From a bacterium (lineage in GTDB: Bacteria > Patescibacteriota > Minisyncoccia > Phycocordibacterales > UBA2100): DNA of 64,000 bases. The stretch lies in the NCBI GenBank assembly GCA_030674455.1, contig JAUSGQ010000006.1, positions 15,654-79,653 of the forward strand. Reading direction: 5' to 3'. Within the stretch, counting starts at the first letter, position 1. The number at the start of each line of letters is the position of its first letter. The position numbers and the translations under genes are program-made. Of this stretch, positions 17,745-62,673 are shown in pieces. The notes under the pieces are model-generated. The model made no database searches. It was given only the letters and a program-made list of their open reading frames with translations, and was not told the origin of the DNA.

Positions 17745-20700
17745 ATGCAGAAGGTACATGGGTTCAGCGCGCGCGTGTTTCTTACCTCGTCCGCGATTTT
17801 GGTCGCGGCGATTTTATTATCAGCTTCCATGGTTAGCAAGGCGGACGCGGCCATAGGTCTCGATGTAACCGCATCACTCACCACTTTTAATCAGACAATC
17901 AAGGCCTCCAGCACGCCAACGGCAGTCATCGGGCTTAATCTTATAAGTGTAGCGAGTCCGGGTGTAGAGACCCTTGCATCCACAAGCATCGCCTTTTTTG
18001 GCGCGGGATTCGCGACCACTACTGACCTCGCGCCGCTCGGAACCGCTACGTCCTCCGGCGTAGCGCTCTATCGCGACGACGCTTCGGCGGGTACGCAGGG
18101 CGCTTTTGACGCATTCGACGACGTCGTTCCTCTTCAGAGCGCGTCGTGGGATGTCGCGGGCGCTACGACGACGTTATCATTCCTTACAAACGAAACAGTT
18201 CCAGTTAACGATACCGGCAACAACGCTGGCAACGACTACTTTATAGTAATACAGACCGCGGGGGGAGCTGTAAACCTTCATGCCTTTACGGCAAATATGT
18301 ATCCCGGCTCAATTCAATGGAACGCAAGTACGCCTACGGCGACTCCGATAGCATTGTCCACAAATACGGTAACGATAGACACAGCAGCGCCGACTCTAGA
18401 CACAAGCATGTCTGGACCAGCGAACGGTTCAACAGGTGTTCCTGTTTCCACCTTCATCCATCTCGGCTTCAGCGAGAACCTCGACCAGACGACACTGAAC
18501 CCGAACAACGTCACGCTTACTAGGGGCGGCAATGCGGTTGGAACGGCGATTCGTCCGTTTCCGAACGGCTTTGATTTGGTTGCATCCAGTCCTCCTACGT
18601 ACACGGCATCTTCGCGATTCGCGAAAGCAGACACGGTCAGCACCGGATTCTTCCAGATAAACGGCAGTAACCAGATATTCCCGCAGGGCGGATATTCGGC
18701 GCCGACGCGAGGAGACATCGTCTACACGCAAACGGATACTTTCCCGCCTGAAGTCGGAGTCATAACAAACGCCACTCTCACATCCGGCACCTTCGCGATA
18801 AACAACAACCCCGCGTTCCGTCCTCTACAGATAACCAAATTTGCTTCTCCAACGGTCGCGGGATACACGGGGGACGGCGCGGTTGTTGGAGTAGGCGATC
18901 TCCTTGTCGCGAATACTTCCGCAAAACCTTCCAACGTGCGTTACAACTGGCACATCGTAACGACAGGCCAGGCCCTTAACAATGCGGGCTTGCGCCTGGA
19001 CGGCGAAGATGCGGCTCCTACATACGCGACGACTACATTCGCGCGCCTTTTGCCCGCCGCGACCTCTACTATTGACGCATCGCAACTGTTCACAGCAACG
19101 ACTACCCTTATGGCCGGCGACCTTGTGTTTGCCAAAGTTGTGAGAGGCGGAGACAACCTGAATACATACGCGTGGCATCTTGTGACCACCGCAGAGACCA
19201 ACGATACAGTCACGGCGGCTCCGCCACAGGGAGCGACAGGTACTACGACCGCGCTTCGCCTAGACGGCGCGGCGGTCGCGCCGACATTCGCTGCGAGTTC
19301 AGTGGTTGCGGTTCTTGGTTTTGCCGCACAGGGGGTTCTTGACGGAGCAGTTGCACAGGATGCCACAGTTTTTAGTTTCGGGGACATAATGTTCGCAAAA
19401 ACAACAGATAATGCGGCCAATAACGGCTCTTATGCGTTCCACCTAGTGTCCAACGGCGCGACTGGCGCCACTTCTACCTCGCTCCGTCTTGACAACTCGG
19501 CGTCGAATCTTACTTCTTCCGCTTCCTATGTGATTACCGCGGGTACGGGTATAAAAGATTCCGCGGGCAACGCATTGGCCGCAACATCAACTATTACATT
19601 CACCACTGGCTCAACTGGCGGAACCAACACGACTCCTCCGGCGGTTCAAAACTCCCAACCGCAGGCGGGCAATCAATCGTTTGCTCCAAACGCTCCAATC
19701 AAGCTGATATTTTCTGTAGCTATGGAAGCGGGAAGCACAAGCGGGGCGAACTCGGTTACGAATACCGCCGTCGTCAAACTTTCAACAAGCGTGAACGGCA
19801 CGCCAACAACGCAGGTGACATCGGGCGTAACGAACAGCTACGACTCAACAACGAACACGCTGACAATCGCGCACACGAGCGCTCTTACAGTGAGTACTGA
19901 TTATGTAGTACAAGTGACAACCGCGGCAAAAAGTTCAACGGGCGCTTCGTTCCCGATGGAATATCGCCTCTACTTCAGGACAGGCACTGCTTCCGACAGC
20001 ACGGCGCCGACTATCCTCGGAGTCTCCCCGACAAATTCTTCGACGGGAGTTTCCATGAGCCCCGTTATTACAGCCGGATTCTCGAAAGACATGAATCCCG
20101 CGACGCTAACTACAACGACCGTAAAACTTGTGGAGACATTAAACAATAGCAATGCAGTTGCAGGAGGCGTTTCGTACAGCCCAAACAGCCGTTCCGTGAA
20201 CTTCGTTCCTTCTACCCCGCTTACAGCCAACACAGGATATTCATTCGTAATCGTTGGTGGTGCATCCGGCGTCACGGACCTCTCGAACAACGCTCTGGCG
20301 AGCCACTCCACTACAACCTTCACAACAACGGCAACCGTCGACGTCATCGCGCCTTCCGTCAACTTTGCCAACGCCGATGACTTCGGAATCGCTATCACGT
20401 TCTCCGAGCCGATGAAATCGGGAGGCGGTCCGAACGCCGCCGACAATGTCGCGAACTATACGCTTGAGAGTCCTACAGGCACCTCGATTTCTCTAGGAGG
20501 GAAAACCATAACGTATGACTCGGGCTCAAAAACCGCGCGCATCACGGGCTTGGCGCTTCAGAATGGCAACGGATACAAAGTTACTGTAGCGTTGCCGGTA
20601 CAAGACCTTGCCAGCAACGCTATTTCGATAGTCGGCACTCCAGCGGGCAACCTTGCCTTCGGTACTGTACAAAATTCCACAGCGACGGGCGGCCAGCTCG

Positions 20701-23700
20701 GGCCTGGCGGCGGAACGATGAACTTCAGCATGCAGGGCATGAACCCGACGCGCGTTTCTCCGGAAAGCCGCTCCGCTGGAGTAACGTCAAATTACAAAGT
20801 TGAATTCTTGGCCACTACAGCAATTCCTATCGGCGGGCAGATTCAGCTTGTCTTCCCGAGCGGATTCACGATTACAAATGCATCAACTACTGCCGCGGCA
20901 ACGTCGTTCTGCAACGCGGACCTGAACGGTCCGATGCCTGGGGTTCCCTCAATCGCCACGGTGACCAACGATAATTCTTCAGGAATCATCACGATAACCA
21001 CCGCCGCTTCTTCAACAGGCGCCTCCGCGTTCGTGTGCTTGGACGTAACGGGAGTTGTCAATTCAGCCGTTCCAAATTCAAGCGGATACACAGTAGACAT
21101 AAAGACCCGCGATACGGGAGACAATAATCGCGCGATACTTGAGACGAAGACATCATCGCCATTCTTCCTCGGGCAAGCGGGTTCCCGCACGCTCATTGCA
21201 AACGTATTCAACGACGGCAACGCTAACGGTGAGAAAGACGCGAATGAGGGCATAGCGGATGTGCGCGTATTCCTCTTCTCTCCGGCATCTGGAGGAAATT
21301 CAACTACTACAACCGCGACCGGCGTAGCGACATTCAACTCTCTTTCCGATGGCGACTATATGCTTGGACTCGACCCCGGGTCGTTGGCTAGCGCTTCTTC
21401 GACGGTTACGTTTAATTCCATGCCTCAGCCATTCATGGTATCCGCTACAAATCTGACGAAGAACTTTATAGTTTCCGGAGGAGGGAGCAGCGTGAACATA
21501 TCTGGAACTGTCACAGGCCCATCCGGCACAGCGGTTGACATCTTTGCTTCCAGCAACAACGGCTTTTCGAGAAAGACCGTAACGCTTTCAGGCGGAGCGG
21601 ACGACTATTCGATTCCCGTGAGTACGAATACAATTTACAACGTAGGAGTCGGCCCGGCGATGCCTGAAGCATTCTTCACTCCAGGAGCCCCTCCGCCTCC
21701 GCCGCCTACATTCACCTTCATGCCGCCTCCTAATATCACGGTAACTGTCGCGACAACGTCAATAACGGGCAAAGATTTCTCGCTTACAACCGCGAGTAAA
21801 ACGATTACCGGAACGGTGCGCGATTCTACTGGAGCCGCAGTTTCAAACGCCGGCGTATTCGCTCGGCCTATGTCGAACTCATCGGGCGCGGAAGTCGGTT
21901 TTGGAACCGGAGGACAAACGAATACTTCCGGCTCGTTCACTCTTAACGTAGTACCCGGAACGTATCTGGTCGGCGTATTCAAAGGCGGAATGCCGAATGT
22001 GCCGGACCAGCAAATTACAGTTCCATCTAGCGGGGCCAACACTCCTGCCTCGCTCGCGTTTTCTCTGGGGGCTGGAACGTCTATAACGATTTCCGGAACG
22101 GTGAAAGACGATGGAGGCAACGCGATTCCTTACGCGGGCGTAAACGCGCGCAAAGTGAACTCGTCATCCGACACGACGTCTATGGGCGGAGGCTCGCAAA
22201 ACTTCGTCGGAGGTCCGACGGATTCCAACGGCGCGTACACGCTCTATGTCGACTCGGGAACTTGGGTAGTTGAGGCGTTTGCCCCCGGATTCGGCAGGCT
22301 CGGCCAGAAAACTCTGTCAGTTACGGCAAGCCTCTCCGGACAGGACTTCTCAGCGCAGACGCTTTCTATCGGAACCATAACCGGCACAACTACCAAAGCA
22401 AGCGTCGAGCAACAAGGCGTAATGGTGCGGGCTGACGGCGCGGCGGGCTCCAACATGGCTGTCTCGGATGCTTCCGGCGTATACACGCTGAAAGTCCCGG
22501 CCGGAACTTATAACCTTACCTGTTTCTTCCCGGGTGTCGGCGAATCCGCGCCATTAACGGGAGTCGTGGCAGTAGTGAACGAGACGTCATACAATAATAA
22601 TTGTACTCTTGCTTCTCCCATAACCATTACTGTCAATCTGACGGACGGTACCAATCCGATTACCGGCGCGTACATAGACGTGCGCGATTCGAACGGCCGC
22701 GGAAATGGAACAAACGTTTCGGCCACCTCTAGCACTCTCGCGACCTACACGGTTACCGTGCCTCCGGGAACATATACGGTGCGTGCGGGACATCCAGCGT
22801 ACGGAACGATAGGAAGCACTGGCAACGTCTCCACAACCCAAACTATTACCTACACTACGACTGCGGGCGCTACGAGGGCAATTACGGGCACCGTTTCTGA
22901 CGGCTCGGCCGGAATCAACGGGGCATGGGTGTCGCTCACCGGAACTCCGACAGGTCAAACTAATACGATAAATACTGGAGCGCAGACAGATTCCACGGGT
23001 GCCTTCACGCTCAATGTTCCTGCAGGGGGCTATACAATCCACGCAAACAAAGGGGGATATATAGCTTCCGGCGCTGACTCAACGGTTACAGTCGCTGGAG
23101 CGGCGGTTTCGGTAGGTACCATAACTCTTACGGCCTCAACGCAAACGATATCAGGCACAGTAACATTGGATAATGTTGGTGTTTCCGGCGCTTATGTAGA
23201 CGCCTCCGCCCCCGGCGGCGGATTTGCGGTGTCGCAAACCGATTCCGCCGGCGCGTACTCGCTTGCTGTGAAGAATGGCACGTGGACAGTGCGCGCTCAC
23301 GCGATGGGATATGAAGGCGGGCCCACTACGGTCACGGTCGCGGGCAACAGCCCGACACAGGGAATTGCACTCACTGCAATTACGGGCTTCGTCTCAAAGC
23401 CCGAACATCAGGAGACAGTAACGCCCACCTCGGGAGGATATCTGACGAACTCCGACATCGGGGACAAGTTCAAAATGAGCATTCCGGCTAACGCCTTGGG
23501 CACGGGTTCAAACGCGGTCACTGTGAAAACCCAGGCGTACACGACTCTTCCTAACCCGTCATCGGGCAGCGTTCTTGCTAAAAATGGACTCTCGTTCTCC
23601 GCGGTTGATTCTTCCGGCCAGCCGATAAAAACTCTGAACAGTCCTATCACGATAGTTATTCCTTATACTGAAGCCGATATACCGACAGGAAAGACTGAAG

Positions 23701-24887
23701 CGGACCTAGTGTTCGGAACATGGAATGGAACCGACTATGAGACCTTGCCGACAACAGTAGACACGGTAAACAACACCTTGACGGTAACCATCTCGCACTT
23801 CTCCAGTTTCGCTCCGTTGGTGCAGGGTAATGTCGCAGTGGCAGCCGCTGCGGCTGCAACTACGGCCACGGTTAGTCCCGGCGGCGGGGGAGTCATGGGA
23901 GGAGGCGGGGCTACGAACATTCCGAAAGCACGCGCTCAAATTATTTATCCTGATGGACGCATCGCCTACGTAGACCAGATAGGAGGGGAATCTGCTCCTT
24001 CCGCGAGCGCAACTGCGGGAGCGAGTTCCGCATCTGCATCTTCGGCAGTCTCGGCCTCGGCCAAGTTCACCGCGCTTTTGAAACAGGGCTCCAAGGGTTC
24101 GGATGTTAAGCGACTCCAGAAACTTCTTGGTGTTGAGGAAACGGGATTCTTCGGCGCGCTTACGCGCGCCGCAGTTGAGCAATTCCAAATAAAGTATGGA
24201 ATTGCAAAGAAAGGACAAGCTGGTTTTGGAACTCTTGGACCCAAGACAAGAGCTAAAATCGCAGAGGCATTTAGTTCGACAGCAGCGGCTAGCTCCCCGC
24301 AGGCAGGCACTGCGGCTCCCGAAATCGGTTCGCTTGCGATACTTGCCGGAGGCCAGTTTGTTCGTTCGCTCAATCTTCGCGCGAAGGGAAGCGACGTGCG
24401 TACTCTTCAACAAATTTTGAACAGCGACCCAGACACGCGCGTCTCATCCGAAGGCGCAGGTTCTCCGGGCGGCGAAACGACTTTCTTTGGCGGCGCAACT
24501 CTGAAAGCCGTGCAGAAATTCCAAGTGAAGCATGATATCGCGAAGCCAGGCAATATCGGATACGGAAATGTCGGGCCGAAAACAAGGGCTAAGCTGAACG
24601 AACTCCTAAATGCATCAAGTTCCGGAGGTGTCTCCCTGCCTACCGGCCAGGCAGGCTCACCTTTAGGGGGAGGTGACTCCTCGGGAACATCTGCCTCCAC
24701 TGCCAACACAGCATCCGCATCTGCCGAAGCTTCAACCGCGGCAGCAGTAACCGCGACAACAACCCCGACGTCGTTAGTCGGGGCTCCGACCGAAAGCGTC
24801 GGAGCTGAAACTGCCGCAACGACCACTGCCGCGACAACAGTAGCGGCTACAGCAACTACCACCGCAACTTCCACAGCGAGCAATTAA
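17745..24887 (+). CDS. giant (2380 aa) secreted surface protein: Ig-like/Big and carboxypeptidase-regulatory-like repeats, C-terminal tandem peptidoglycan-binding domains
   Basis: Signal peptide. Repeated SPxNxxTGV Big-like modules and many VSGTVxD...G beta-sandwich repeats. Two PG_binding_1-like modules near the C-terminus (GSDVKRLQKLLGV...GFGTLGPKTRAKI; GSDVRTLQQIL...GYGNVGPKTRAKL) and a low-complexity Ala/Thr tail. In-frame Element B copy at about 24640-24700. Confidence 0.85.
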   Translation: MQKVHGFSARVFLTSSAILVAAILLSASMVSKADAAIGLDVTASLTTFNQTIKASSTPTAVIGLNLISVASPGVETLASTSIAFFGAGFATTTDLAPLGTATSSGVALYRDDASAGTQGAFDAFDDVVPLQSASWDVAGATTTLSFLTNETVPVNDTGNNAGNDYFIVIQTAGGAVNLHAFTANMYPGSIQWNASTPTATPIALSTNTVTIDTAAPTLDTSMSGPANGSTGVPVSTFIHLGFSENLDQTTLNPNNVTLTRGGNAVGTAIRPFPNGFDLVASSPPTYTASSRFAKADTVSTGFFQINGSNQIFPQGGYSAPTRGDIVYTQTDTFPPEVGVITNATLTSGTFAINNNPAFRPLQITKFASPTVAGYTGDGAVVGVGDLLVANTSAKPSNVRYNWHIVTTGQALNNAGLRLDGEDAAPTYATTTFARLLPAATSTIDASQLFTATTTLMAGDLVFAKVVRGGDNLNTYAWHLVTTAETNDTVTAAPPQGATGTTTALRLDGAAVAPTFAASSVVAVLGFAAQGVLDGAVAQDATVFSFGDIMFAKTTDNAANNGSYAFHLVSNGATGATSTSLRLDNSASNLTSSASYVITAGTGIKDSAGNALAATSTITFTTGSTGGTNTTPPAVQNSQPQAGNQSFAPNAPIKLIFSVAMEAGSTSGANSVTNTAVVKLSTSVNGTPTTQVTSGVTNSYDSTTNTLTIAHTSALTVSTDYVVQVTTAAKSSTGASFPMEYRLYFRTGTASDSTAPTILGVSPTNSSTGVSMSPVITAGFSKDMNPATLTTTTVKLVETLNNSNAVAGGVSYSPNSRSVNFVPSTPLTANTGYSFVIVGGASGVTDLSNNALASHSTTTFTTTATVDVIAPSVNFANADDFGIAITFSEPMKSGGGPNAADNVANYTLESPTGTSISLGGKTITYDSGSKTARITGLALQNGNGYKVTVALPVQDLASNAISIVGTPAGNLAFGTVQNSTATGGQLGPGGGTMNFSMQGMNPTRVSPESRSAGVTSNYKVEFLATTAIPIGGQIQLVFPSGFTITNASTTAAATSFCNADLNGPMPGVPSIATVTNDNSSGIITITTAASSTGASAFVCLDVTGVVNSAVPNSSGYTVDIKTRDTGDNNRAILETKTSSPFFLGQAGSRTLIANVFNDGNANGEKDANEGIADVRVFLFSPASGGNSTTTTATGVATFNSLSDGDYMLGLDPGSLASASSTVTFNSMPQPFMVSATNLTKNFIVSGGGSSVNISGTVTGPSGTAVDIFASSNNGFSRKTVTLSGGADDYSIPVSTNTIYNVGVGPAMPEAFFTPGAPPPPPPTFTFMPPPNITVTVATTSITGKDFSLTTASKTITGTVRDSTGAAVSNAGVFARPMSNSSGAEVGFGTGGQTNTSGSFTLNVVPGTYLVGVFKGGMPNVPDQQITVPSSGANTPASLAFSLGAGTSITISGTVKDDGGNAIPYAGVNARKVNSSSDTTSMGGGSQNFVGGPTDSNGAYTLYVDSGTWVVEAFAPGFGRLGQKTLSVTASLSGQDFSAQTLSIGTITGTTTKASVEQQGVMVRADGAAGSNMAVSDASGVYTLKVPAGTYNLTCFFPGVGESAPLTGVVAVVNETSYNNNCTLASPITITVNLTDGTNPITGAYIDVRDSNGRGNGTNVSATSSTLATYTVTVPPGTYTVRAGHPAYGTIGSTGNVSTTQTITYTTTAGATRAITGTVSDGSAGINGAWVSLTGTPTGQTNTINTGAQTDSTGAFTLNVPAGGYTIHANKGGYIASGADSTVTVAGAAVSVGTITLTASTQTISGTVTLDNVGVSGAYVDASAPGGGFAVSQTDSAGAYSLAVKNGTWTVRAHAMGYEGGPTTVTVAGNSPTQGIALTAITGFVSKPEHQETVTPTSGGYLTNSDIGDKFKMSIPANALGTGSNAVTVKTQAYTTLPNPSSGSVLAKNGLSFSAVDSSGQPIKTLNSPITIVIPYTEADIPTGKTEADLVFGTWNGTDYETLPTTVDTVNNTLTVTISHFSSFAPLVQGNVAVAAAAAATTATVSPGGGGVMGGGGATNIPKARAQIIYPDGRIAYVDQIGGESAPSASATAGASSASASSAVSASAKFTALLKQGSKGSDVKRLQKLLGVEETGFFGALTRAAVEQFQIKYGIAKKGQAGFGTLGPKTRAKIAEAFSSTAAASSPQAGTAAPEIGSLAILAGGQFVRSLNLRAKGSDVRTLQQILNSDPDTRVSSEGAGSPGGETTFFGGATLKAVQKFQVKHDIAKPGNIGYGNVGPKTRAKLNELLNASSSGGVSLPTGQAGSPLGGGDSSGTSASTANTASASAEASTAAAVTATTTPTSLVGAPTESVGAETAATTTAATTVAATATTTATSTASN

Positions 24888-56651: not shown

Positions 56652-59228
56652 ATGGGGATGTCATTTTGGAAGGGGCTTTTAGGGGACGATAATTCCGCCG
56701 CTCTTAAGCGCGCACAGCCTATTGTCACTCAAGTTAACGCGCTTGAGAACGAAATGCGCGCTTTATCAGACGCGGAATTGATCGATACAACAAATAAACT
56801 TCGTCAGGAGCTTGAATCGGGAAAGACCCTTGATGAAATTGCTTCGCGGGCGTTTGCGCTCGTGCGCGAATCCTCGAGGCGTACGCTCGGAGAGCGCCAT
56901 TTTGATGTTCAGCTCATCGGCGGCATGATCCTGCATAATGGAGACATAGCGGAAATGAGAACTGGCGAAGGAAAGACGCTCGTCGCAACCTTACCCGCGT
57001 ATCTAAACGCTCTTTCGGGTAAAGGTGTGCATATTGTTACGGTCAACGACTATCTATCTCGCCGCGATGCGGTGTGGATGGGGCAGATATACCACGCCCT
57101 CGGTTTGTCTGTAGGAGTCATCAATAATGACAGTTCATTTTTATACGACCCAAGCAGTGTGTCTGAAAGTACGTCGGGCGAAAGCTCCAAGCTCCAAGCT
57201 CCAAGCTCCAATCAAAATCCAAATACCAATGATCAAAATCAAAAACTGGACGAAATTCGGGACGCAACAGGGAGTTTCCACGTAGTCCATGAATTCCTGC
57301 GCCCGTGTTCCCGTACGGAGGCGTATGCGGCCGATATTACGTACGGAACGAATAATGAGTTCGGCTTCGATTACTTGCGCGACAACATTGAATACACTCC
57401 TGCCACGCTCCGGCAACGCGGATATAACTATGCGATAGTAGACGAAATAGACTCCATATTGATAGACGAGGCGCGCACTCCGCTCATCATATCCGCGCCC
57501 GTTGCGGATGCCGAGCGCCTGTATGACCGATTCGCGGTAATTGCAAGGAAGCTTATTCCAAAGGAGGATTATACGATTGACGAAAAACATAAACAAATAG
57601 AGCTTTCCGACTCTGGAATTGAAAAGGCGCAACTCGAACTCGGAGTCGGAAACATATATACCGAAAAGGGAATTAAATACGTACACCATTTAGAGACAGC
57701 GGTGCGCGCGGAGGCGCTTTTTCATAAAGACAAAGAGTACGTTGTTCGCAATAATGAGGTCGTAATAGTCGACGAATTTACGGGCAGATTACAGCCGGGG
57801 AGGCGGTGGAGCGAAGGGCTGCACCAGGCTATTGAAGCCAAGGAGGGAGTTAGCGTTCAACAAGAATCGCGCACCTTTGCCTCGATTACATTCCAGAATT
57901 ATTTCCGCCTGTATGAAAAACTTGGCGGAATGACAGGCACGGCCATGACGTCTTCCGAGGAATTTTATAAAGTGTATGGCCTTAATACCGTTGCCGTGCC
58001 TACAAATAAGCCGTCTGCAAGAATAGACCATGAGGACCTTATCTTTCAGACTGAAGCCGGCAAATATAAAGCGGTTGCAAGAAAAGTGCGTGAACTAAAC
58101 AAAAAAGGTCAGCCGGTTCTTGTGGGGACTGCGTCAGTGGAGAAAAACGAATTGCTAAGTGCGCATTTCAAGCAAGAGGGTATTCCGCACGAAATGTTGA
58201 ACGCGAAGAACCATGAAAGGGAAGGGGAAATAATCGCGCAAGCGGGTCGCTATGGTGCAGTAACCATTGCGACCAACATGGCAGGCCGCGGCGTAGACAT
58301 CAAGCTGGGTGGAAATCCCACGACAGACGAGGAGTACGACAAAGTAAAAGCACTCGGCGGCCTCTATGTGCTTGCGACTGAGCGCCATGAAGCGAGGCGA
58401 ATAGACAATCAATTGCGAGGCCGTTCGGCGCGGCAGGGCGACCCCGGAGAAACTGAATTTTTTGTTTCTCTCGAAGACTCTCTGATGCGTATTTTCGCCT
58501 CGGATATTATCAAGCGGGTTATGGGCACGTTCAAAATTCCGGAGGATGAGCCGATTTACAATTCGATGATAACGAAATCTCTTGAGAAGGCGCAGACTCG
58601 CATCGAGGAGATGAATTTTGATATGCGTAAACACGTTCTCGCGTACGACGATGTTCTCAACATCCAGAGACAGAGTATTTATTCTCGCAGGCGTGCTTTA
58701 TTGGTGGGCGGCAAAGATGCAATCGATTCCGAACTCGCAAGAATCGGCGAAGCTAACGAAAGTTTCAAAGCTGTCGTCTCAGAGAAGAAAACTGAACTCG
58801 GCGCGTCTTTCCACGAATTGGTGCAAAAGTTTTTATTGCAAACAATTGATTTTCTCTGGGTCGATCACCTGGAAGCAATGGAATATTTGCGTTCAAGCGT
58901 AAATCTGCGCGCGTATGGACAGAGAGATCCGCTTGTCGAGTACAAAAGGGAAGGGCTAAAAATGTTCCAACAAATGGAATCTTCGTACGCGATGCAAATT
59001 GAGAATGTACTTCCAAACCTCAAAGGCGAGGTAAATGTAAGCGCAGAAGCCAAAGTTATCCACAACGCAGTTCGCTCGATAACTCTCGGTTCCTCGCTAC
59101 CTAATCAGGAGAAATTCGAGCGCAACGACAAAGTCGTAATTACCGACGGCAAGGAAAACAGAGAGATGAAATTCAAGAAAGCTGAAGCACTTCTTGCAAC
59201 AGGCAAGTGGAAGATAGTTGGGAATTGA
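56652..59228 (+). CDS. secA: preprotein translocase ATPase SecA
   Basis: DEAD-like motor domains (MRTGEGKTL; DEVDSILIDEARTPLII), preprotein cross-linking domain and helical scaffold. 858 aa. Confidence 0.95.
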   Translation: MGMSFWKGLLGDDNSAALKRAQPIVTQVNALENEMRALSDAELIDTTNKLRQELESGKTLDEIASRAFALVRESSRRTLGERHFDVQLIGGMILHNGDIAEMRTGEGKTLVATLPAYLNALSGKGVHIVTVNDYLSRRDAVWMGQIYHALGLSVGVINNDSSFLYDPSSVSESTSGESSKLQAPSSNQNPNTNDQNQKLDEIRDATGSFHVVHEFLRPCSRTEAYAADITYGTNNEFGFDYLRDNIEYTPATLRQRGYNYAIVDEIDSILIDEARTPLIISAPVADAERLYDRFAVIARKLIPKEDYTIDEKHKQIELSDSGIEKAQLELGVGNIYTEKGIKYVHHLETAVRAEALFHKDKEYVVRNNEVVIVDEFTGRLQPGRRWSEGLHQAIEAKEGVSVQQESRTFASITFQNYFRLYEKLGGMTGTAMTSSEEFYKVYGLNTVAVPTNKPSARIDHEDLIFQTEAGKYKAVARKVRELNKKGQPVLVGTASVEKNELLSAHFKQEGIPHEMLNAKNHEREGEIIAQAGRYGAVTIATNMAGRGVDIKLGGNPTTDEEYDKVKALGGLYVLATERHEARRIDNQLRGRSARQGDPGETEFFVSLEDSLMRIFASDIIKRVMGTFKIPEDEPIYNSMITKSLEKAQTRIEEMNFDMRKHVLAYDDVLNIQRQSIYSRRRALLVGGKDAIDSELARIGEANESFKAVVSEKKTELGASFHELVQKFLLQTIDFLWVDHLEAMEYLRSSVNLRAYGQRDPLVEYKREGLKMFQQMESSYAMQIENVLPNLKGEVNVSAEAKVIHNAVRSITLGSSLPNQEKFERNDKVVITDGKENREMKFKKAEALLATGKWKIVGN

Positions 59229-59497
59229 GCTTGTCTCGGACCTCCGAGATGTTCCGATATATCGAGCCATCTCGGACGTGTCTCGGATTACCATGTGGTT
59301 CATATGCATTGGTGAATGGAAGCTCAAATTTGCAAAATACAATTTGCAATTTGCAAATTAAATCTAAAATCGCAATTCTCAAGCTATACCATCATGAAAA
59401 CACGGCCGATGCAAATGCCTTTTGTAATTTCTGTATTGTGATTTTGTTTGCAAATTATGGTTTGGAGCTTGCAAATTCAACGTGTTACAGTGCCCGC

Positions 59498-61528
59498 ATG
59501 GCAACATACGTTCCCACGATAGGACTTGAGATTCATGCCGAGCTCAAAACCAGGACCAAAATGTTCTGTAGTTCAAAGAACGATGCCGACGAAGTGCGCC
59601 CAAATTTTAATGTCTGCCCCGTCTGCCTCGCGCATCCGGGCACGCTTCCTGTTATCAACCAGGAAGCCGTGAGGCACGTACTGCGGGTAGGGAACGCGCT
59701 TAAGGGAACTATCGCCGATTATACGGAATTCGATAGAAAGAATTATTTTTATCCCGACCTTCCGAAGGGCTATCAAATTAGCCAATACGAATACCCCTTA
59801 GTTTCTGGGGGCTCGCTTAACGAGGTGCAGATTACAAGAATCCATCTCGAGGAAGACACCGCCTCGCTGATGCACGCCGAAGAACATCAGCGGATATCCG
59901 CGGATATGAATCTGCGACAATCTGCGTCCTTGGTGGATTACAATCGCGCAGGAGTACCACTGATGGAGTTGGTGACAGAACCAGTTATCAAAAGTGCGGA
60001 AGAAGCCGGAACGTTTGCCCGAGAATTACAGCTGCTTCTTCGATACTTGAACGCTAGCGAGGCGAATATGGAAAAGGGAGAAATGCGCGTAGAAGCCAAC
60101 GTCTCTGTCGCTAAAGCGCCAGAGACCGCGGATTCACGCGGATACGAAGAGCGGATTCACGCGGATACAGAAGACACGAAGTTGTTATATAAGGAATTGA
60201 CTTATAAAATCAGGGGAGCCGCATTTGCAGTCTATAACGTCCTTGGTAGCGGCCACAAAGAATCCGTATATCAAAATGCTTTTGCGGAACATTTAAAAAA
60301 GGTAGGTATTTCATACGCAAAAGAGCAGAGCATTGGCGTGTCTTATGAAGGGAAACGGGTAGGGAGTTATCAGCCGGACTTCGTGATAGACAATAAAATC
60401 ATAATAGAATTAAAGGCACTTCCGTTTGTCGGGGATATAGAGAGAAGGCAAGTTCGTTACTATCTCAAAAACTCATCCTATCGACTCGCGTTACTCATCA
60501 ATTTCGGTTCGAGCCCCATCGGTATTGAAAGGATCGTATACGATCATATCCGCCATCAAACGCAGATAAGCGCTGATTCCCATCCGCGGATATCCGCTGA
60601 TAATCCGCGTATATCTGCGGAGTTAGGCACAAAGGTAGAGATAAAGAACCTGAACTCGTTTCGCATTATGGAAAAAGCAGTCGCGTATGAAATTAAACGC
60701 CAACAAGAATTGCTTGAACGTGGCGAGAAAGTTGCGCAGGAGACCAGGGGGTGGGATGAGAAGACAGGCAAAACGTTCTCACAACGGGTGAAAGAGGGTA
60801 GCGCTGACTACCGATATTTCCCCGATCCTGACTTACCATCATTGAAATTATCTGAAGTTGAAGAATTCCTAACCGACGCACTCCTAAAAGATATGCCGGA
60901 GCTACCCGCAGAACGCAGGGCGCGTTATAAAGGCCTTGGCATAAAGGCTGAAGACGCCGACTTGTATGTACGCGAGACTCGTCTCGGAGGGTACTTTGAA
61001 GCTGTTGTTGAGGGTTACAAGCCGCAATCTCGCGAGCTTATTCTGGCATCTAACTACATCGCGAATGACCTTGTTAAGATTATCCGACTTCGCTCCGCCG
61101 AAGCTCGTAAGAGCGAAGGAGAGGATAAGGGAGCTCCGTCGAGACAAGTCCGAGATATGGAAGAACGAGATTCAGAAGTCCAACCCGAGTTTCTTATATC
61201 AGCTCGATATTTCCAAGAGATAATTAGGATGCTCTGTGCCAACGAAATATCTTCTAGAGCGGCTAAAGACTTGCTCGCCTTGTCTATCTCGGAGAAGCGG
61301 AGCCCGTCCGAGATTGCTAAAGAAAAGGGTTTATTCCAAACGATTTCGACATCGGATATCGAGGCAGTCATTGCGGAGGTAATCTTGAAGAATCCCAGGG
61401 TTGTGTCTGATTTTAAGGCCGGTAAGACAGCTTCATTGGAGTATCTGATTGGGCAGTGTATCAAAGCATTGCGCGGCGCAGGCGACCCTATAATGCTTAG
61501 GGCGCTCATTTTGAAGCAACTAGAATAA
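59498..61528 (+). CDS. gatB: Asp/Glu-tRNA amidotransferase subunit B with a ~170-aa in-frame insertion carrying a GxxExxY PD-(D/E)XK nuclease domain
   Basis: GatB core (MATYVPTIGLEIHAELKT, CPVCLAHPGTLPV, HLEEDT, ELGTKVEIKNLNSF, DYRYFPDPDLP, C-terminal YqeY-like domain). The insert at about 60110-60619 contains GSGHKESVY and PDFVID...IIELK. Start placed at the internal Met, since the first 97 track codons lack GatB homology. Confidence 0.85.
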   Translation: MATYVPTIGLEIHAELKTRTKMFCSSKNDADEVRPNFNVCPVCLAHPGTLPVINQEAVRHVLRVGNALKGTIADYTEFDRKNYFYPDLPKGYQISQYEYPLVSGGSLNEVQITRIHLEEDTASLMHAEEHQRISADMNLRQSASLVDYNRAGVPLMELVTEPVIKSAEEAGTFARELQLLLRYLNASEANMEKGEMRVEANVSVAKAPETADSRGYEERIHADTEDTKLLYKELTYKIRGAAFAVYNVLGSGHKESVYQNAFAEHLKKVGISYAKEQSIGVSYEGKRVGSYQPDFVIDNKIIIELKALPFVGDIERRQVRYYLKNSSYRLALLINFGSSPIGIERIVYDHIRHQTQISADSHPRISADNPRISAELGTKVEIKNLNSFRIMEKAVAYEIKRQQELLERGEKVAQETRGWDEKTGKTFSQRVKEGSADYRYFPDPDLPSLKLSEVEEFLTDALLKDMPELPAERRARYKGLGIKAEDADLYVRETRLGGYFEAVVEGYKPQSRELILASNYIANDLVKIIRLRSAEARKSEGEDKGAPSRQVRDMEERDSEVQPEFLISARYFQEIIRMLCANEISSRAAKDLLALSISEKRSPSEIAKEKGLFQTISTSDIEAVIAEVILKNPRVVSDFKAGKTASLEYLIGQCIKALRGAGDPIMLRALILKQLE

Positions 61529-61647
61529 GATATCTCGGTATCTGCGAGAATCTGCGGGAATTTCCTGCGAGAATCTGCGTCTAGAGTAATCCACAGGTAG
61601 GCCCCAGGAGGACATCATAAGGGAATATCTGGTATATAATAAAATGC

Positions 61648-62673
61648 ATGTCAGACGAACTAACAATCGACTCGCAGACTTTTATCTCGTCTAAACGAGC
61701 ATCGGAGTTAAGCGGATATGAGCAGGATTACATAGGCCAGCTTTGTCGTGGAGGTAGCATAACTGCGCGCAGAGTGGGTGGGCTTTGGTATGTGTCGGAA
61801 GAATCTCTTATGAGCTATAAAAAGGGTGCCGCGCAGTATAAGCCGGAGCCACCGCTAAATACCGGCGAGATAGCTCGACCGGATTCATTGGTTTCTTTTG
61901 ACGGCAGGGGTTATATCTCAACATCCCGCGCGGCGAAAATTACCGGATACACACCAGATTATGTGGGACAAATGGCCAGAGCCGGCATTATCCCGTCACG
62001 GCAGGTAGGAAATCGATGGTATGTCGAGCAATCGGGCATATTGAGGCACAAGGAGAGTAAGGACGCCCTATTAGCGGCCGTACAGGTTCAATCTGTTGGT
62101 ATTACGAATCAGAAAGCCACGGAAGTTGAGAGTGATATGGCCGTGGCACCATTACTGAAGTATGTCAGCGATAATCGCGAACTCCTCCCATCTATGGGCG
62201 AATCAGCAGACCGTCTACAGGTGCCGACCATAGACCGGTCGGCCCGTCTACAGGCGAATCAGCAGACTTCGTGGCTCGGCCTGCCGATGCCTACCCCATC
62301 GGCCTTCGTGGCTAGGCCTGCCGATATCAGATCTCCTGAAGCGGAGATGGCAAACGAGGAGGTTGCAGAGCAGGAACATGTCATCCCGATACGGATACAT
62401 CATAATAGCCGAAATATTGCTAAGAATAAGGCCTTTTTTAAGCCAGTGGCTGTAATACCAAGAAAGTCCTTATTGCCGATGTTGTTGCCGGTTGGAATGT
62501 TCACGATAGTGATTGTCCTTTCGCTTGGATTCGTTTCTCTGAAAAGGTCATCCACCTATACAAGCCGCGGAACAGCCCAATTGGCGAGCGTAGGCATGAA
62601 CTTCGTAGGAAAAGTCGGAGATTCCCTTGAGAACTGGTTCATACCTGAAATCGTTTACCAAAGGACCAATTAA
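61648..62673 (+). CDS. membrane protein with two N-terminal excisionase/MerR-type HTH repeats (...GxWYV)
   Basis: ISSKRASELSGYEQDYIGQLCRGGSITARRVGGLWYV and ISTSRAAKITGYTPDYVGQMARAGIIPSRQVGNRWYV. C-terminal TM helix. In-frame Element C copy at 62221-62265. Confidence 0.5.
   Translation: MSDELTIDSQTFISSKRASELSGYEQDYIGQLCRGGSITARRVGGLWYVSEESLMSYKKGAAQYKPEPPLNTGEIARPDSLVSFDGRGYISTSRAAKITGYTPDYVGQMARAGIIPSRQVGNRWYVEQSGILRHKESKDALLAAVQVQSVGITNQKATEVESDMAVAPLLKYVSDNRELLPSMGESADRLQVPTIDRSARLQANQQTSWLGLPMPTPSAFVARPADIRSPEAEMANEEVAEQEHVIPIRIHHNSRNIAKNKAFFKPVAVIPRKSLLPMLLPVGMFTIVIVLSLGFVSLKRSSTYTSRGTAQLASVGMNFVGKVGDSLENWFIPEIVYQRTN

What the first reader, a model, noticed from the sequence alone, without database searches (positions are those of the whole stretch)
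60110..60619. In-frame insertion of a GxxExxY-type PD-(D/E)XK nuclease domain inside gatB, flanked by ATCCGCGGAT-type repeats
GatB is collinear with canonical GatB up to ...VEANVSV and resumes at ELGTKVEIKNLNSF. Between them lie about 170 extra residues. They include GSGHKESVY (GxxExxY) and PDFVID...IIELK (D...ExK), hallmarks of the small GxxExxY PD-(D/E)XK nuclease family. This is inference from motifs, not a database hit. The insert is bounded by short direct or palindromic repeats: GCGGATTCACGCGGATAC x2 at 60120-60165, and ATCCGCGGATATCCGCTGATAATCCGCGTATATCTGCGGA at 60588-60627. Related copies lie at 59885-59925 and 61531-61585. There is no intein-like Cys/Ser...His-Asn splice-junction signature. 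This looks like a selfish nuclease domain domesticated or tolerated in frame in an essential gene.
Basis: partly seen in the sequence, partly recalled or inferred. Interest (0 to 1): 0.8.

Follow-up and report, generated by a model that had tools for sequence, protein, structure and literature searches.

The report
Mobile nuclease cassette inside gatB
An essential tRNA-amidotransferase gene (gatB) of a tiny "candidate phyla radiation" bacterium carries, in frame in a surface loop, a complete small nuclease gene bracketed by inverted arrays of a 7-base repeat. The same kind of cassette sits in frame in many other housekeeping genes of related bacteria, so it looks like an undescribed type of selfish DNA that lives inside proteins without being spliced out.

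Summary
gatB (59498-61528) is interrupted in frame at 60110-60622 by a full-length GxxExxY / PDDEXK_3 nuclease domain (TIGR04256, 1-116/116, E=2e-31). Around it lie inverted arrays of the heptamer ATCYGCG, spaced about 10 bp apart. There is no intein domain and no intron RNA.

It is not a one-off. About 20 GatB homologues at 49-71% identity carry a nuclease at the same loop. Syntenic relatives have either an empty 5-aa loop or a nuclease-less palindrome of the same heptamers.

An exhaustive search shows the insert's closest relatives are themselves embedded in frame in other proteins: LepA, RecG, LeuRS, a Val/Ile-type synthetase, SecA, DHFR, RtcB, AsnB, glycosyltransferases and more. They always have the same repeat-encoded linkers.

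The nuclease keeps its catalytic residues and is under purifying selection (dN/dS about 0.09). Its tree conflicts with the host tree. A LepA-embedded copy is 80% identical to a GatB-embedded one.

Best reading: a mobile, stop-less nuclease cassette that is translated as part of the host protein and tolerated in loops. It resembles Rickettsia palindromic elements and inteins, but carries its own nuclease and does not splice. How it moves is inferred, not shown.

The parts
59498..61528 (+). gatB coding sequence (676 aa including the insert). This is the host gene.
   Evidence: GatB equivalog NF004012 scores 507.7 bits (cut-off 338); GatB_N and GatB_Yqey are present. The locus is syntenic (SecA-GatB-HTH_17) with relatives. 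Host parts have dN 0.09-0.37 with synonymous sites saturated.
59885..59926 (+). Nuclease-less 'solo' heptamer palindrome, inserted in frame in an earlier GatB loop. It encodes HQRISADMNLRQSAS.
   Evidence: Heptamers run < then > >. The same solo is in P0002-4, P0007, P0018 and P0021 but absent in L004, L074, L075 and L076. The AF2 model has pLDDT <50 at aa 130-134. In L037 this same loop holds a full nuclease.
60110..60622 (+). The whole in-frame insert (about 171 aa): 5' arm and linker, nuclease, 3' arm and linker. It replaces a loop that is 5 aa long in empty orthologues.
   Evidence: Alignment with 120 GatB homologues and with empty, solo and filled syntenic loci. In solved GatB structures the gap is 4-9 residues.
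60127..60166 (+). 5' arm: four heptamers in CGCRGAT orientation, spaced 10, 13 and 10 nt. Translated as the linker ADSRGYEERIHAD.
   Evidence: The arm is identical over about 50 nt in L001/L003 although the host genes are saturated at synonymous sites. pLDDT is <50 at aa 210-226.
60179..60547 (+). GxxExxY / PDDEXK_3 nuclease domain (aa 228-350). Motifs: GxxExxY 60245-60271, PD 60374-60391, ExK 60401-60415.
60561..60619 (+). 3' arm: one CGCAGAT, then four heptamers in ATCYGCG orientation spaced 10, 11 and 10 nt. Translated as the linker ISADSHPRISADNPRISA.
   Evidence: It is complementary to the 5' arm; the RNA minimum-energy fold pairs the two arms (z=-3.5). pLDDT is <50 at aa 352-372.
61540..61579 (+). 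Third heptamer cluster (three ATCTGCG) just after the gatB stop codon. It sits where relatives have a GC-rich hairpin.
   Evidence: As a hairpin it is only weakly better than shuffles (z=-1.9).

Best explanation
The insert is a resident copy of a compact selfish DNA element. Its anatomy is [CGCRGAT heptamers, about 10-bp phase] - GxxExxY PD-(D/E)XK nuclease ORF with no start or stop codon of its own - [ATCYGCG heptamers].

It sits in frame at the tip of a beta-hairpin of the GatB cradle domain and is translated as part of GatB. The repeat arms become disordered linkers, and the nuclease folds as an independent domain hanging off a still-functional enzyme.

Shown here:
- the anatomy;
- in-frame translation;
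- the loop location;
- conservation of the nuclease active site;
- recurrence at the same GatB loop, at a second GatB loop, and in many other housekeeping proteins;
- nuclease-less palindromic derivatives at the same sites;
- phylogenetic conflict between element and host.

Inferred, not shown:
- The nuclease, expressed through the host gene, makes a DNA break at or next to heptamer arrays or empty sites.
- Recombinational repair from a filled copy, with the arms as homology, then copies the cassette in. This gives homing-like spread to orthologous sites and occasional jumps to new loops.
- Only in-frame insertions in permissive loops of essential genes survive.
- The solos are either deletion derivatives (the loop of the arm-arm stem lost) or landing pads.
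For: Identity and frame:
- HMM hits and a continuous ORF.
- The AF2 model has GatB and the nuclease at pLDDT >90 and the repeat-encoded segments at <50, between strands E196-206 and E380-385.

Recurrence in GatB:
- About 20 of the top 120 GatB homologues carry PF13366 at the identical site.
- Site states among the 120: 55 empty, several solos (P0005, P0006, P0012, P0031, P0045, P0069), about 20 filled.
- Syntenic SecA-GatB-HTH_17 loci exist in all three states.

Generality:
- About 30 of the 41 best representatives (E<=1e-30 out of 9486 hits) are embedded in longer proteins.
- Hosts confirmed by Pfam: DHFR, LepA, RecG, RtcB, GT2, GT4, LeuRS, Wzy ligase, AsnB, P-type ATPase, transketolase-like, alpha/beta hydrolase.
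- Further hosts and sites: a class I Val/Ile-type synthetase, SecA, a second LepA site and the other GatB loop.
- All embedded copies have the same linkers, upstream TQ[IT][DN]AD and downstream [NQ][PQ]RxSA.

Arms:
- In 62 genome loci the upstream flank holds 1.35 '<' heptamers against 0.08 '>'. The downstream flank holds 1.63 '>' against 0 '<'.
- The heptamer variant matches between the two arms of a locus.
- The spacing peak is 9-10 bp (74 of 115).

Translation through the insert:
- Near-identical loci L001 and L003 differ by +24 and -51 nt in the arrays, both multiples of 3.
- In 8 of 8 tblastn-found loci with a known host on both sides, both host parts share the nuclease frame.

Selection:
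- Nuclease dN/dS is about 0.09.
- Catalytic residues are intact in 58-59 of 59 embedded copies.

Mobility:
- Host tree: P0002/3 group with empty-site P0026/34 (90% bootstrap); P0001+2+3 are monophyletic in 0% of replicates; P0023 groups with empties (99.5%).
- Nuclease tree: P0001+2+3+32 form a clade (89.5%); GatB copies P0056/57/265 group with LepA copy P0258 (99%, 80% identity); all-GatB monophyly 0%.
- Nuclease synonymous divergence between the window and L001 is lower than in the host parts (pS 0.59 against 0.74-0.83), and the 5' arm is 87% identical.

Solos:
- The exact 19-mer arm occurs in 67 metagenome contigs.
- About 27 of these are cargo-less palindromes.
- The nuclease is the only cargo seen between arms.
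Against: - No nuclease activity, cleavage site or transposition event is demonstrated.
- There is only one nuclease copy and four array clusters in this 64-kb window, all at gatB, so there is no sign of ongoing proliferation in this genome.
- No target-site duplication was found.
- One whole GatB clade (15 of 15 sampled) carries the nuclease. That fits long stable vertical inheritance, and the strong purifying selection could mean a host-beneficial role. This sample is biased, though, because insert-bearing proteins score higher against the query.
- The trees are neighbour-joining on short alignments. The lower pS of the nuclease could reflect sequence constraints rather than recent transfer.
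- A 125-aa PD-(D/E)XK domain can cut DNA but cannot by itself carry out strand transfer.
- No relatives were found on viral contigs with the patterns used, so no vector is identified.
Confidence: 0.7

Rival explanations
1. Domesticated fusion. An ancient insertion became a useful accessory domain of GatB (and, independently, of other proteins). It is inherited vertically, and the nuclease fold serves a host function such as nucleic-acid binding or quality control.
For: Strong purifying selection and intact catalytic residues in embedded copies. A 15-member GatB clade in which every sampled member has the insert. No decaying nuclease remnants in GatB among 120 homologues.
Against: The same domain, with the same repeat-encoded linkers, sits in more than 15 functionally unrelated proteins and at two loops each of GatB and LepA. 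Presence is patchy among syntenic orthologues, with empty canonical loops. Nuclease and host trees conflict, and there is a GatB-LepA pair at 80% identity. The flanking inverted arrays and the cargo-less solos have no role in a purely protein-level story.
Confidence: 0.12
2. RNA-level intervening sequence. The complementary arms form a stem in the transcript, and the insert is excised (as in rRNA intervening sequences or bulge-helix-bulge introns) and the exons rejoined. Mature GatB would then lack the nuclease.
Against: No Rfam family matches at E<=1. The frame is open and shared with the host on both sides in every case, including 8 of 8 loci found by tblastn independently of gene calls. Array indels between near-identical loci are multiples of 3. 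Heptamer position 4 varies without compensation between arms; for example L019 has CGCAGAT upstream and ATCAGCG downstream. None of this would be needed if the RNA were removed. The stem is also an automatic consequence of inverted DNA repeats.
Confidence: 0.07
3. Conventional intein or other protein-splicing element carrying a homing endonuclease.
For: It occupies the same niche: an in-frame insertion of a nuclease at a conserved site of housekeeping proteins, with a patchy distribution.
Against: No Hint or intein domain in the Pfam or NCBIfam scans. The junction residues are ...ET|AD... and ...SA|ELGTK, with no conserved Cys/Ser/Thr nucleophile or His-Asn across 20 homologues. The flanks are low-complexity repeat-encoded peptides predicted to be disordered.
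Confidence: 0.01
4. Assembly chimera or dead pseudogene of no biological meaning.
For: The source is a metagenome-assembled genome, and short repeats can mis-join contigs.
Against: The same architecture appears in independent assemblies from NCBI, JGI, ENA and Logan. The ORF is intact, the host parts are under purifying selection, and GatB equivalog models score above their cut-offs.
Confidence: 0.02

Closest known systems
Rickettsia palindromic elements (RPEs): in-frame MITE-like selfish DNA in protein-coding genes (reviewed in PMC10969869)
   Same: Palindromic repeat DNA inserted in frame in unrelated housekeeping genes, translated as extra peptide, and placed where protein structure tolerates it. 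The nuclease-less solos here (59885-59926; L004, L075) behave exactly like this.
   Different: RPEs are about 100-150 bp and carry no enzyme, and no mobilising protein is known for them. Here the full element carries a complete, conserved nuclease domain between the arms. The arms are arrays of a phased 7-mer rather than one long palindrome. The hosts are Patescibacteria, not Rickettsia. Sequence relatedness to RPEs was not tested.
Inteins carrying homing endonucleases
   Same: An in-frame nuclease-encoding insertion at conserved sites of essential or informational proteins. It is expressed through the host gene, sporadically distributed, recurs at the same site in orthologues, and its tree conflicts with the host tree.
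   Different: There is no Hint splicing domain and no junction nucleophiles. The insert apparently stays in the mature protein on flexible linkers. The nuclease is PD-(D/E)XK, not LAGLIDADG or HNH. The element has inverted repeat arms and repeat-only derivatives, which inteins lack.
REP / REPIN sequences with their RAYT transposases, and MITEs with parent IS elements
   Same: Short palindromic repeats vastly outnumber a single associated enzyme gene that is itself flanked by them. Here, about 27 cargo-less palindromes appear among 67 metagenome hits to one arm 19-mer, against 4 nuclease-bearing loci. The two arms share the same heptamer variant within a locus.
   Different: The enzyme is a roughly 125-aa PD-(D/E)XK nuclease, not an HUH or DDE transposase. 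No target-site duplication was seen. REP/RAYT systems are extragenic, whereas this clade lives in frame inside genes.
Free-standing GxxExxY (TIGR04256) / PDDEXK_3 (PF13366) proteins
   Same: Same family by HMM, same catalytic residues, and same inverted heptamer arms.
   Different: Free-standing copies have their own start codon, and a stop codon within 1-10 codons after the domain. The embedded copies have neither. The family's function is listed as unknown (PMC3424549).
23S rRNA intervening sequences
   Same: An insertion flanked by complementary arms that can form a stem, sometimes carrying a small ORF. This comparison comes from memory and was not tested here.
   Different: Those sit in rRNA and are removed by RNase III, leaving fragmented rRNA. 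Here the host is an mRNA and the frame is strictly preserved.

Membership tests
GxxExxY protein family (TIGR04256) / PDDEXK_3 (PF13366) | Score above the curated HMM cut-off over the full model | tested here: met
   TIGR04256 scores 108.9 bits against a cut-off of 35, covering model positions 1-116 of 116. PF13366 scores 109.4 bits against 22.
PD-(D/E)XK nuclease superfamily | Catalytic E...PD...(D/E)xK residues on an alpha-beta-beta-beta-alpha-beta core | tested here: met
PD-(D/E)XK nuclease superfamily | Demonstrated nucleic-acid cleavage | not testable with these tools
   Needs biochemistry. The literature lists the family's function as unknown.
GatB (Asp/Glu-tRNA amidotransferase subunit B) | Equivalog HMM above cut-off, and colinearity with solved GatB on both sides of the insert | tested here: met
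   NF004012 scores 507.7 bits (cut-off 338) and TIGR00133 scores 447.6 (cut-off 314.8). The N part aligns to chain residues up to about 195-205 and the C part from about 200-214 in 3al0_B, 2df4_B, 3h0l_B and 3kfu_F.
Intein | Hint splicing domain | tested here: not met
   The protein hits only GatB_N, PDDEXK_3 and GatB_Yqey at E<=0.01.
Intein | Conserved N-terminal Cys/Ser, C-terminal His-Asn, and a +1 Cys/Ser/Thr | tested here: not met
   The junctions are variable repeat-encoded peptides, and the +1 residue is Leu or Pro-Leu in 20 homologues.
Group I / group II intron or other curated RNA element | Match to an Rfam covariance model | tested here: not met
   No match at E<=1 in 59000-62000 on either strand.
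Homing-endonuclease-type selfish element | The same site is occupied in diverged orthologues, presence is sporadic, and the element tree conflicts with the host tree | tested here: met
   Host: P0002/3 plus empties, 90%. Nuclease: P0001+2+3+32, 89.5%. All-GatB monophyly, 0%.
Homing-endonuclease-type selfish element | The nuclease cleaves the empty allele | not testable with these tools
   Requires a cleavage assay on L074/L076-type empty sites.
Transposon / MITE | Terminal inverted repeats | tested here: met
   Inverted heptamer arrays bound the element. The asymmetry is strong: 1.35 against 0.08 upstream and 1.63 against 0 downstream.
Transposon / MITE | Target-site duplication | tested here: inconclusive
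   No consistent direct repeat lies outside the arms in 11 embedded loci. The loops are too diverged to define exact junctions.
Transposon / MITE | Multiple dispersed copies in one genome | tested here: not met
   The 64-kb window has one nuclease copy, and its array clusters lie only in and next to gatB. The rest of the genome was not available.
REP/RAYT (REPIN) system | HUH (Y1) transposase flanked by its REP sequences | tested here: not met
   The flanked enzyme is PD-(D/E)XK, not HUH. Only the arrangement is analogous.
Rickettsia palindromic element-like in-frame MITE | Short palindromic repeat inserted in frame and translated, at structurally permissive positions | tested here: met
   The solos at 59885-59926 and in L004 are in frame. 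They are hairpin-forming (z=-5.3) and fall in low-pLDDT loops.
Rickettsia palindromic element-like in-frame MITE | Sequence homology to RPE families | not tested
   No RPE sequences were compared.

The most novel reading that the evidence does not exclude
GxxExxY nucleases with their phased inverted heptamer arrays form a previously unrecognised class of bacterial mobile element, and the nuclease is the enzyme that mobilises a widespread REP/MITE-like repeat family. One clade has lost its start and stop codons and specialised in colonising surface loops of essential proteins in Patescibacteria (GatB, LepA, RecG, aminoacyl-tRNA synthetases, SecA and others). It fills the ecological niche of inteins without any splicing chemistry. 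These bacteria would therefore run much of their core machinery with a live nuclease domain tethered to it.
Probability: 0.45. Interest if true: 0.88.

Novelty: new variant of a known kind. Interest (0 to 1): 0.8.

Why it matters
1. It gives a first concrete biological context to a large protein family of unknown function: 9486 representative clusters at E<=1e-3. Only three papers in the searchable library even mention its name.

2. It shows a third way for selfish DNA to live inside essential genes, besides splicing out (introns, inteins) and being tiny (RPEs). The element stays in, as a folded domain on repeat-encoded flexible linkers.

3. It gives a testable system for how new domains enter proteins. 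The permissive loops of GatB, LepA, RecG, SecA and the synthetases are mapped by nature.

4. It has a practical cost. NCBI's pipeline names this GatB 'GxxExxY protein', so essential genes can vanish from metabolic reconstructions of candidate-phyla genomes.

5. If the nuclease recognises the heptamer arrays, it is a very small sequence-directed nuclease with a defined site.

Tried and rejected
- Intein: rejected. No Hint domain and no junction nucleophiles.
- Group I/II intron or any Rfam RNA: nothing at E<=1.
- Sequence relatives with a solved structure: none for the insert. The fold search gives only generic PD-(D/E)XK neighbours and no specific functional assignment.
- Further nuclease copies in the window: none by tblastn or HMM.
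- Target-site duplications: none convincing.
The single-protein scan of viral contigs found no relatives.
- Other cargo between arms carrying the same 19-mer: none. Only solos or the GatB nuclease were found.
- Co-conversion of host flanks with the element: no clear signal in region-wise identities.
- Comparison with the archaeal GatE insertion domain: GatE chains did not reach the phmmer threshold, so this was left untested.
- Literature searches for a prior description of in-frame GxxExxY/PDDEXK_3 insertions or of the heptamer arrays found nothing relevant.
- The LepA fragment L006 has a broken ORF inside the nuclease. It was not resolved whether this is decay or sequencing error.
Full report
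**1. The observation**

The long ORF listed at 59207-61528 contains gatB, starting at ATG 59498 (MATYVPTIGLEIH...).
- Pfam finds GatB_N in two stretches separated by PF13366 PDDEXK_3 at aa 232-340 (E=1.7e-31), followed by GatB_Yqey.
- NCBIfam finds GatB equivalogs above cut-off. It also finds TIGR04256 'GxxExxY protein' end to end (1-116/116, 108.9 bits against a cut-off of 35) at aa 233-347.

The flanking repeats are real but the reported coordinates are shifted by 6-8 nt.
- GCGGATTCACGCGGATAC lies at 60128-60145 and 60151-60168.
- The 40-mer lies at 60582-60621.
- ATCYGCGKA occurs 12 times against 2.6 expected (0 of 100 shuffles).
- Clusters of at least three heptamers occur only at four places in 64 kb: 59885-59926, 60127-60166, 60561-60619 and 61540-61579.

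**2. Anatomy**

- The 5' cluster holds the heptamer as CGCRGAT and the 3' cluster as ATCYGCG, spaced 10-13 nt apart, so the nuclease ORF is bracketed by inverted arrays.
- The arrays are translated as ADSRGYEERIHAD and ISADSHPRISADNPRISA.
- In the AlphaFold model of the whole protein (mean pLDDT 85.9), the GatB parts and the nuclease (aa 228-350) score above 90.
- The repeat-encoded segments (aa 210-226 and 352-372) score below 50.
- The insert lies between two strands, E196-206 and E380-385.
- In solved GatB structures the same place is a loop of 4-9 residues.
- There is no intein domain, there are no splice-junction residues, no Rfam family matches, and there is no other copy in the window.

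**3. Relatives of the host gene**

- The protein is in NCBI as a metagenome-assembled 'GxxExxY protein [bacterium]'.
- Its closest named relatives are Kaiserbacteria, Parcubacteria and Patescibacteria GatBs.
- About 20 of the top 120 homologues (49-71% identity) also carry PF13366, always after EANVS[VI] and before LGTKVE.
- At that site 55 homologues have the canonical short loop.
- Several have a short peptide made only of the repeat-encoded motifs, for example P0005 ...IADERRENADTNGENLRQSADNLRSSAS....

I fetched syntenic SecA-GatB-HTH_17 loci in all three states:
- filled: the window, L001-L003 and L005;
- solo palindrome '<< >>>': L004 and L075;
- empty: L074 and L076.

The earlier cluster at 59885-59926 is such a solo in a different GatB loop. 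It is shared with some relatives and absent in others.

L001 and L003 are near-identical genes that differ by +24 nt in the 5' array and -51 nt in the first-loop solo, both multiples of three.

**4. Relatives of the insert**

An exhaustive HMMER search of 1.84 billion representatives gave 9486 hits at E<=1e-3 and 41 at E<=1e-30. About 30 of those 41 are internal to much longer proteins.

Pfam identifies these hosts:
- GatB
- dihydrofolate reductase
- LepA and other translational GTPases
- RecG
- RtcB
- GT2 and GT4 glycosyltransferases
- LeuRS
- Wzy-type ligase
- asparagine synthase
- a P-type ATPase
- a transketolase-like enzyme
- an alpha/beta hydrolase

In named GTDB genomes the closest copies (52-62% identity) sit in several places:
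- LepA, at two different sites;
- RecG;
- LeuRS;
- a class I Val/Ile-type synthetase;
- SecA, just before its zinc finger;
- GatB at the same loop;
- GatB at the first loop (L037), exactly where the window has a solo.

Every embedded copy has the same linkers, upstream TQ[IT][DN]AD and downstream [NQ][PQ]RxSA, which are the translated arrays.

More distant free-standing copies (Bacteroidota, Omnitrophota and others) have their own start codon and a stop 1-10 codons after the domain. They keep the inverted arms:
- upstream flanks hold 1.35 '<' against 0.08 '>' per locus;
- downstream flanks hold 1.63 '>' against 0 '<';
- the heptamer variant (ATTCGTG, ATTAGTG, ATTTGTG, ATCTGTG, ATCCGCG and others) matches between the two arms of a locus;
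- the spacing peaks at 9-10 bp.

**5. Is it translated?**

- In 8 of 8 loci found by tblastn (independently of gene calls) with a known host on both sides, both host halves are in the nuclease's frame.
- Array length differences between close relatives are multiples of three.
- The RNA fold does pair the two arms (z=-3.5), but that follows automatically from inverted repeats. It would not require an open, shared frame.
- I therefore take the insert to be retained in the protein.

**6. Is it selfish and mobile?**

- The nuclease is under purifying selection: between the window and L001, dN is 0.104, pS is 0.59 and dN/dS is about 0.09.
- The catalytic E/D/E/K residues are intact in 58-59 of 59 embedded copies.
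- Host synonymous sites are saturated (pS 0.74-0.83) while the nuclease is less diverged, and the 5' arm is 87% identical.

Bootstrapped neighbour-joining trees conflict:
- In the host tree, P0002/3 group with empty-site P0026/34 (90%) and never with P0001 (0%). P0023 groups with empties (99.5%).
- In the nuclease tree, P0001+2+3+32 form a clade (89.5%).
- GatB-embedded nucleases fall into at least three groups.
- One of these groups clusters with a LepA-embedded copy (99%; 80% identity).

The exact 19-mer of the window's arm occurs in 67 metagenome contigs of GC 0.44-0.72.
- About 27 are cargo-less palindromes with 3-134 nt between the arms, often right after a stop codon.
- Only the GatB loci carry anything between the arms, and that cargo is the nuclease.

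Together this indicates repeated gain and loss at one site, jumps between genes, and a large population of non-autonomous derivatives.

**7. Mechanism**

Shown: the anatomy, in-frame retention, loop placement, conservation, recurrence and phylogenetic conflict.

Inferred:
- The nuclease, made as part of the host protein, breaks DNA at heptamer arrays or empty sites.
- Repair from a filled copy, with the arms as homology, copies the cassette in.
- Selection keeps only in-frame insertions in permissive loops.
- Solos arise by loss of the loop of the arm-arm stem, or serve as landing pads.

Against this:
- no target-site duplication;
- a single copy in this window;
- a GatB clade in which all sampled members are filled (a biased sample);
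- no biochemical data at all for the family.

**8. Comparison and novelty**

- The nearest known things are Rickettsia palindromic elements (in-frame translated MITEs), inteins with homing endonucleases, and REP/RAYT systems.
- This element shares the in-frame loop lifestyle with the first, the niche and the nuclease with the second, and the arrangement of many repeats around one enzyme with the third.
- It fails the defining tests of each: it carries an enzyme, it has no Hint domain, and its enzyme is not an HUH transposase.
- Searches of the available literature found no description of in-frame GxxExxY insertions or of the heptamer arrays. That library is incomplete.
- I rate it a new variant of known kinds of selfish element.
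- I give about 45% to the stronger claim that it defines a distinct class, with GxxExxY as the mobilising nuclease.

Noticed in passing
window 59498-61528 (protein P0001): NCBI's annotation names this whole GatB 'GxxExxY protein'. The insert therefore causes an essential gene to be mis-named in public records.
   Followed up: partly
L077-L143 (metagenome contigs): The exact arm 19-mer CGCGGATTCACGCGGATAC occurs in 67 contigs of GC 0.44-0.72. About 27 are cargo-less '<< >>' palindromes, often right after a stop codon, so the heptamer arrays are a widespread REP/MITE-like repeat well beyond Patescibacteria.
   Followed up: partly
window about 61584-61597, and the same place in L001, L003, L004, L074-L076: A conserved box GAGTAATCCACAGG lies between gatB and the downstream HTH_17 gene in all syntenic loci. 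It may be a promoter or regulatory element.
   Followed up: no
window 61540-61579: Three ATCTGCG heptamers sit just after the gatB stop codon, where relatives have a GC-rich hairpin. A repeat array may be acting as, or replacing, the terminator. As a hairpin it is only weakly better than shuffles (z=-1.9).
   Followed up: partly
P0017 (995 aa, JGI): A GatB with the nuclease insert also carries rve / IS3-type integrase domains in the same predicted protein.
   Followed up: no
P0263, P0268, P0276, P0281 and about 30 others: A large group of proteins of about 265 aa consists of two tandem GxxExxY domains.
   Followed up: no
P0372, P0380; P0292, P0302, P0303, P0318, P0322, P0327: GxxExxY domains are fused at the N terminus of type IV pilin-like (N_methyl) proteins and of proteins with 300-400 aa regions that have no Pfam match. 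In L022 the same downstream gene is separated from the nuclease by a stop codon, so the fusions look like read-through variants of an upstream insertion.
   Followed up: partly
L006 (LepA fragment P0183): A LepA-embedded nuclease whose ORF breaks after ELKALP, followed by a second ORF. This is either a decaying copy or a sequencing frameshift.
   Followed up: no
window about 61100-61190 (GatB aa about 535-565): Another lineage-specific, charged, low-confidence segment (pLDDT <50 at aa 550-555) in the helical/tail region of GatB. It has no heptamers.
   Followed up: no
window 56652-59228 (SecA): SecA contains a Ser/Asn/Gln-rich low-complexity stretch (SVSESTSGESSKLQAPSSNQNPNTNDQNQK). In another genome (L016) SecA hosts a full GxxExxY cassette near its C terminus.
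   Followed up: no
GatB insertion loop in P0035, P0086, P0038/48/50, P0043, P0058 and P0089: The same GatB loop also holds other short inserts unrelated to the heptamers (for example KSQITNHKSQ repeats and PLRSD-type peptides). The loop is a general hotspot for insertions.
   Followed up: no
window 17745-24887: A 2380-aa protein with Big_5, CarboxypepD_reg and PG_binding domains, probably a giant surface protein. The rest of the window is ordinary housekeeping: DnaE, SMC, a class II tRNA synthetase, a DEAD helicase, and a Wzy ligase without an insert.
   Followed up: no
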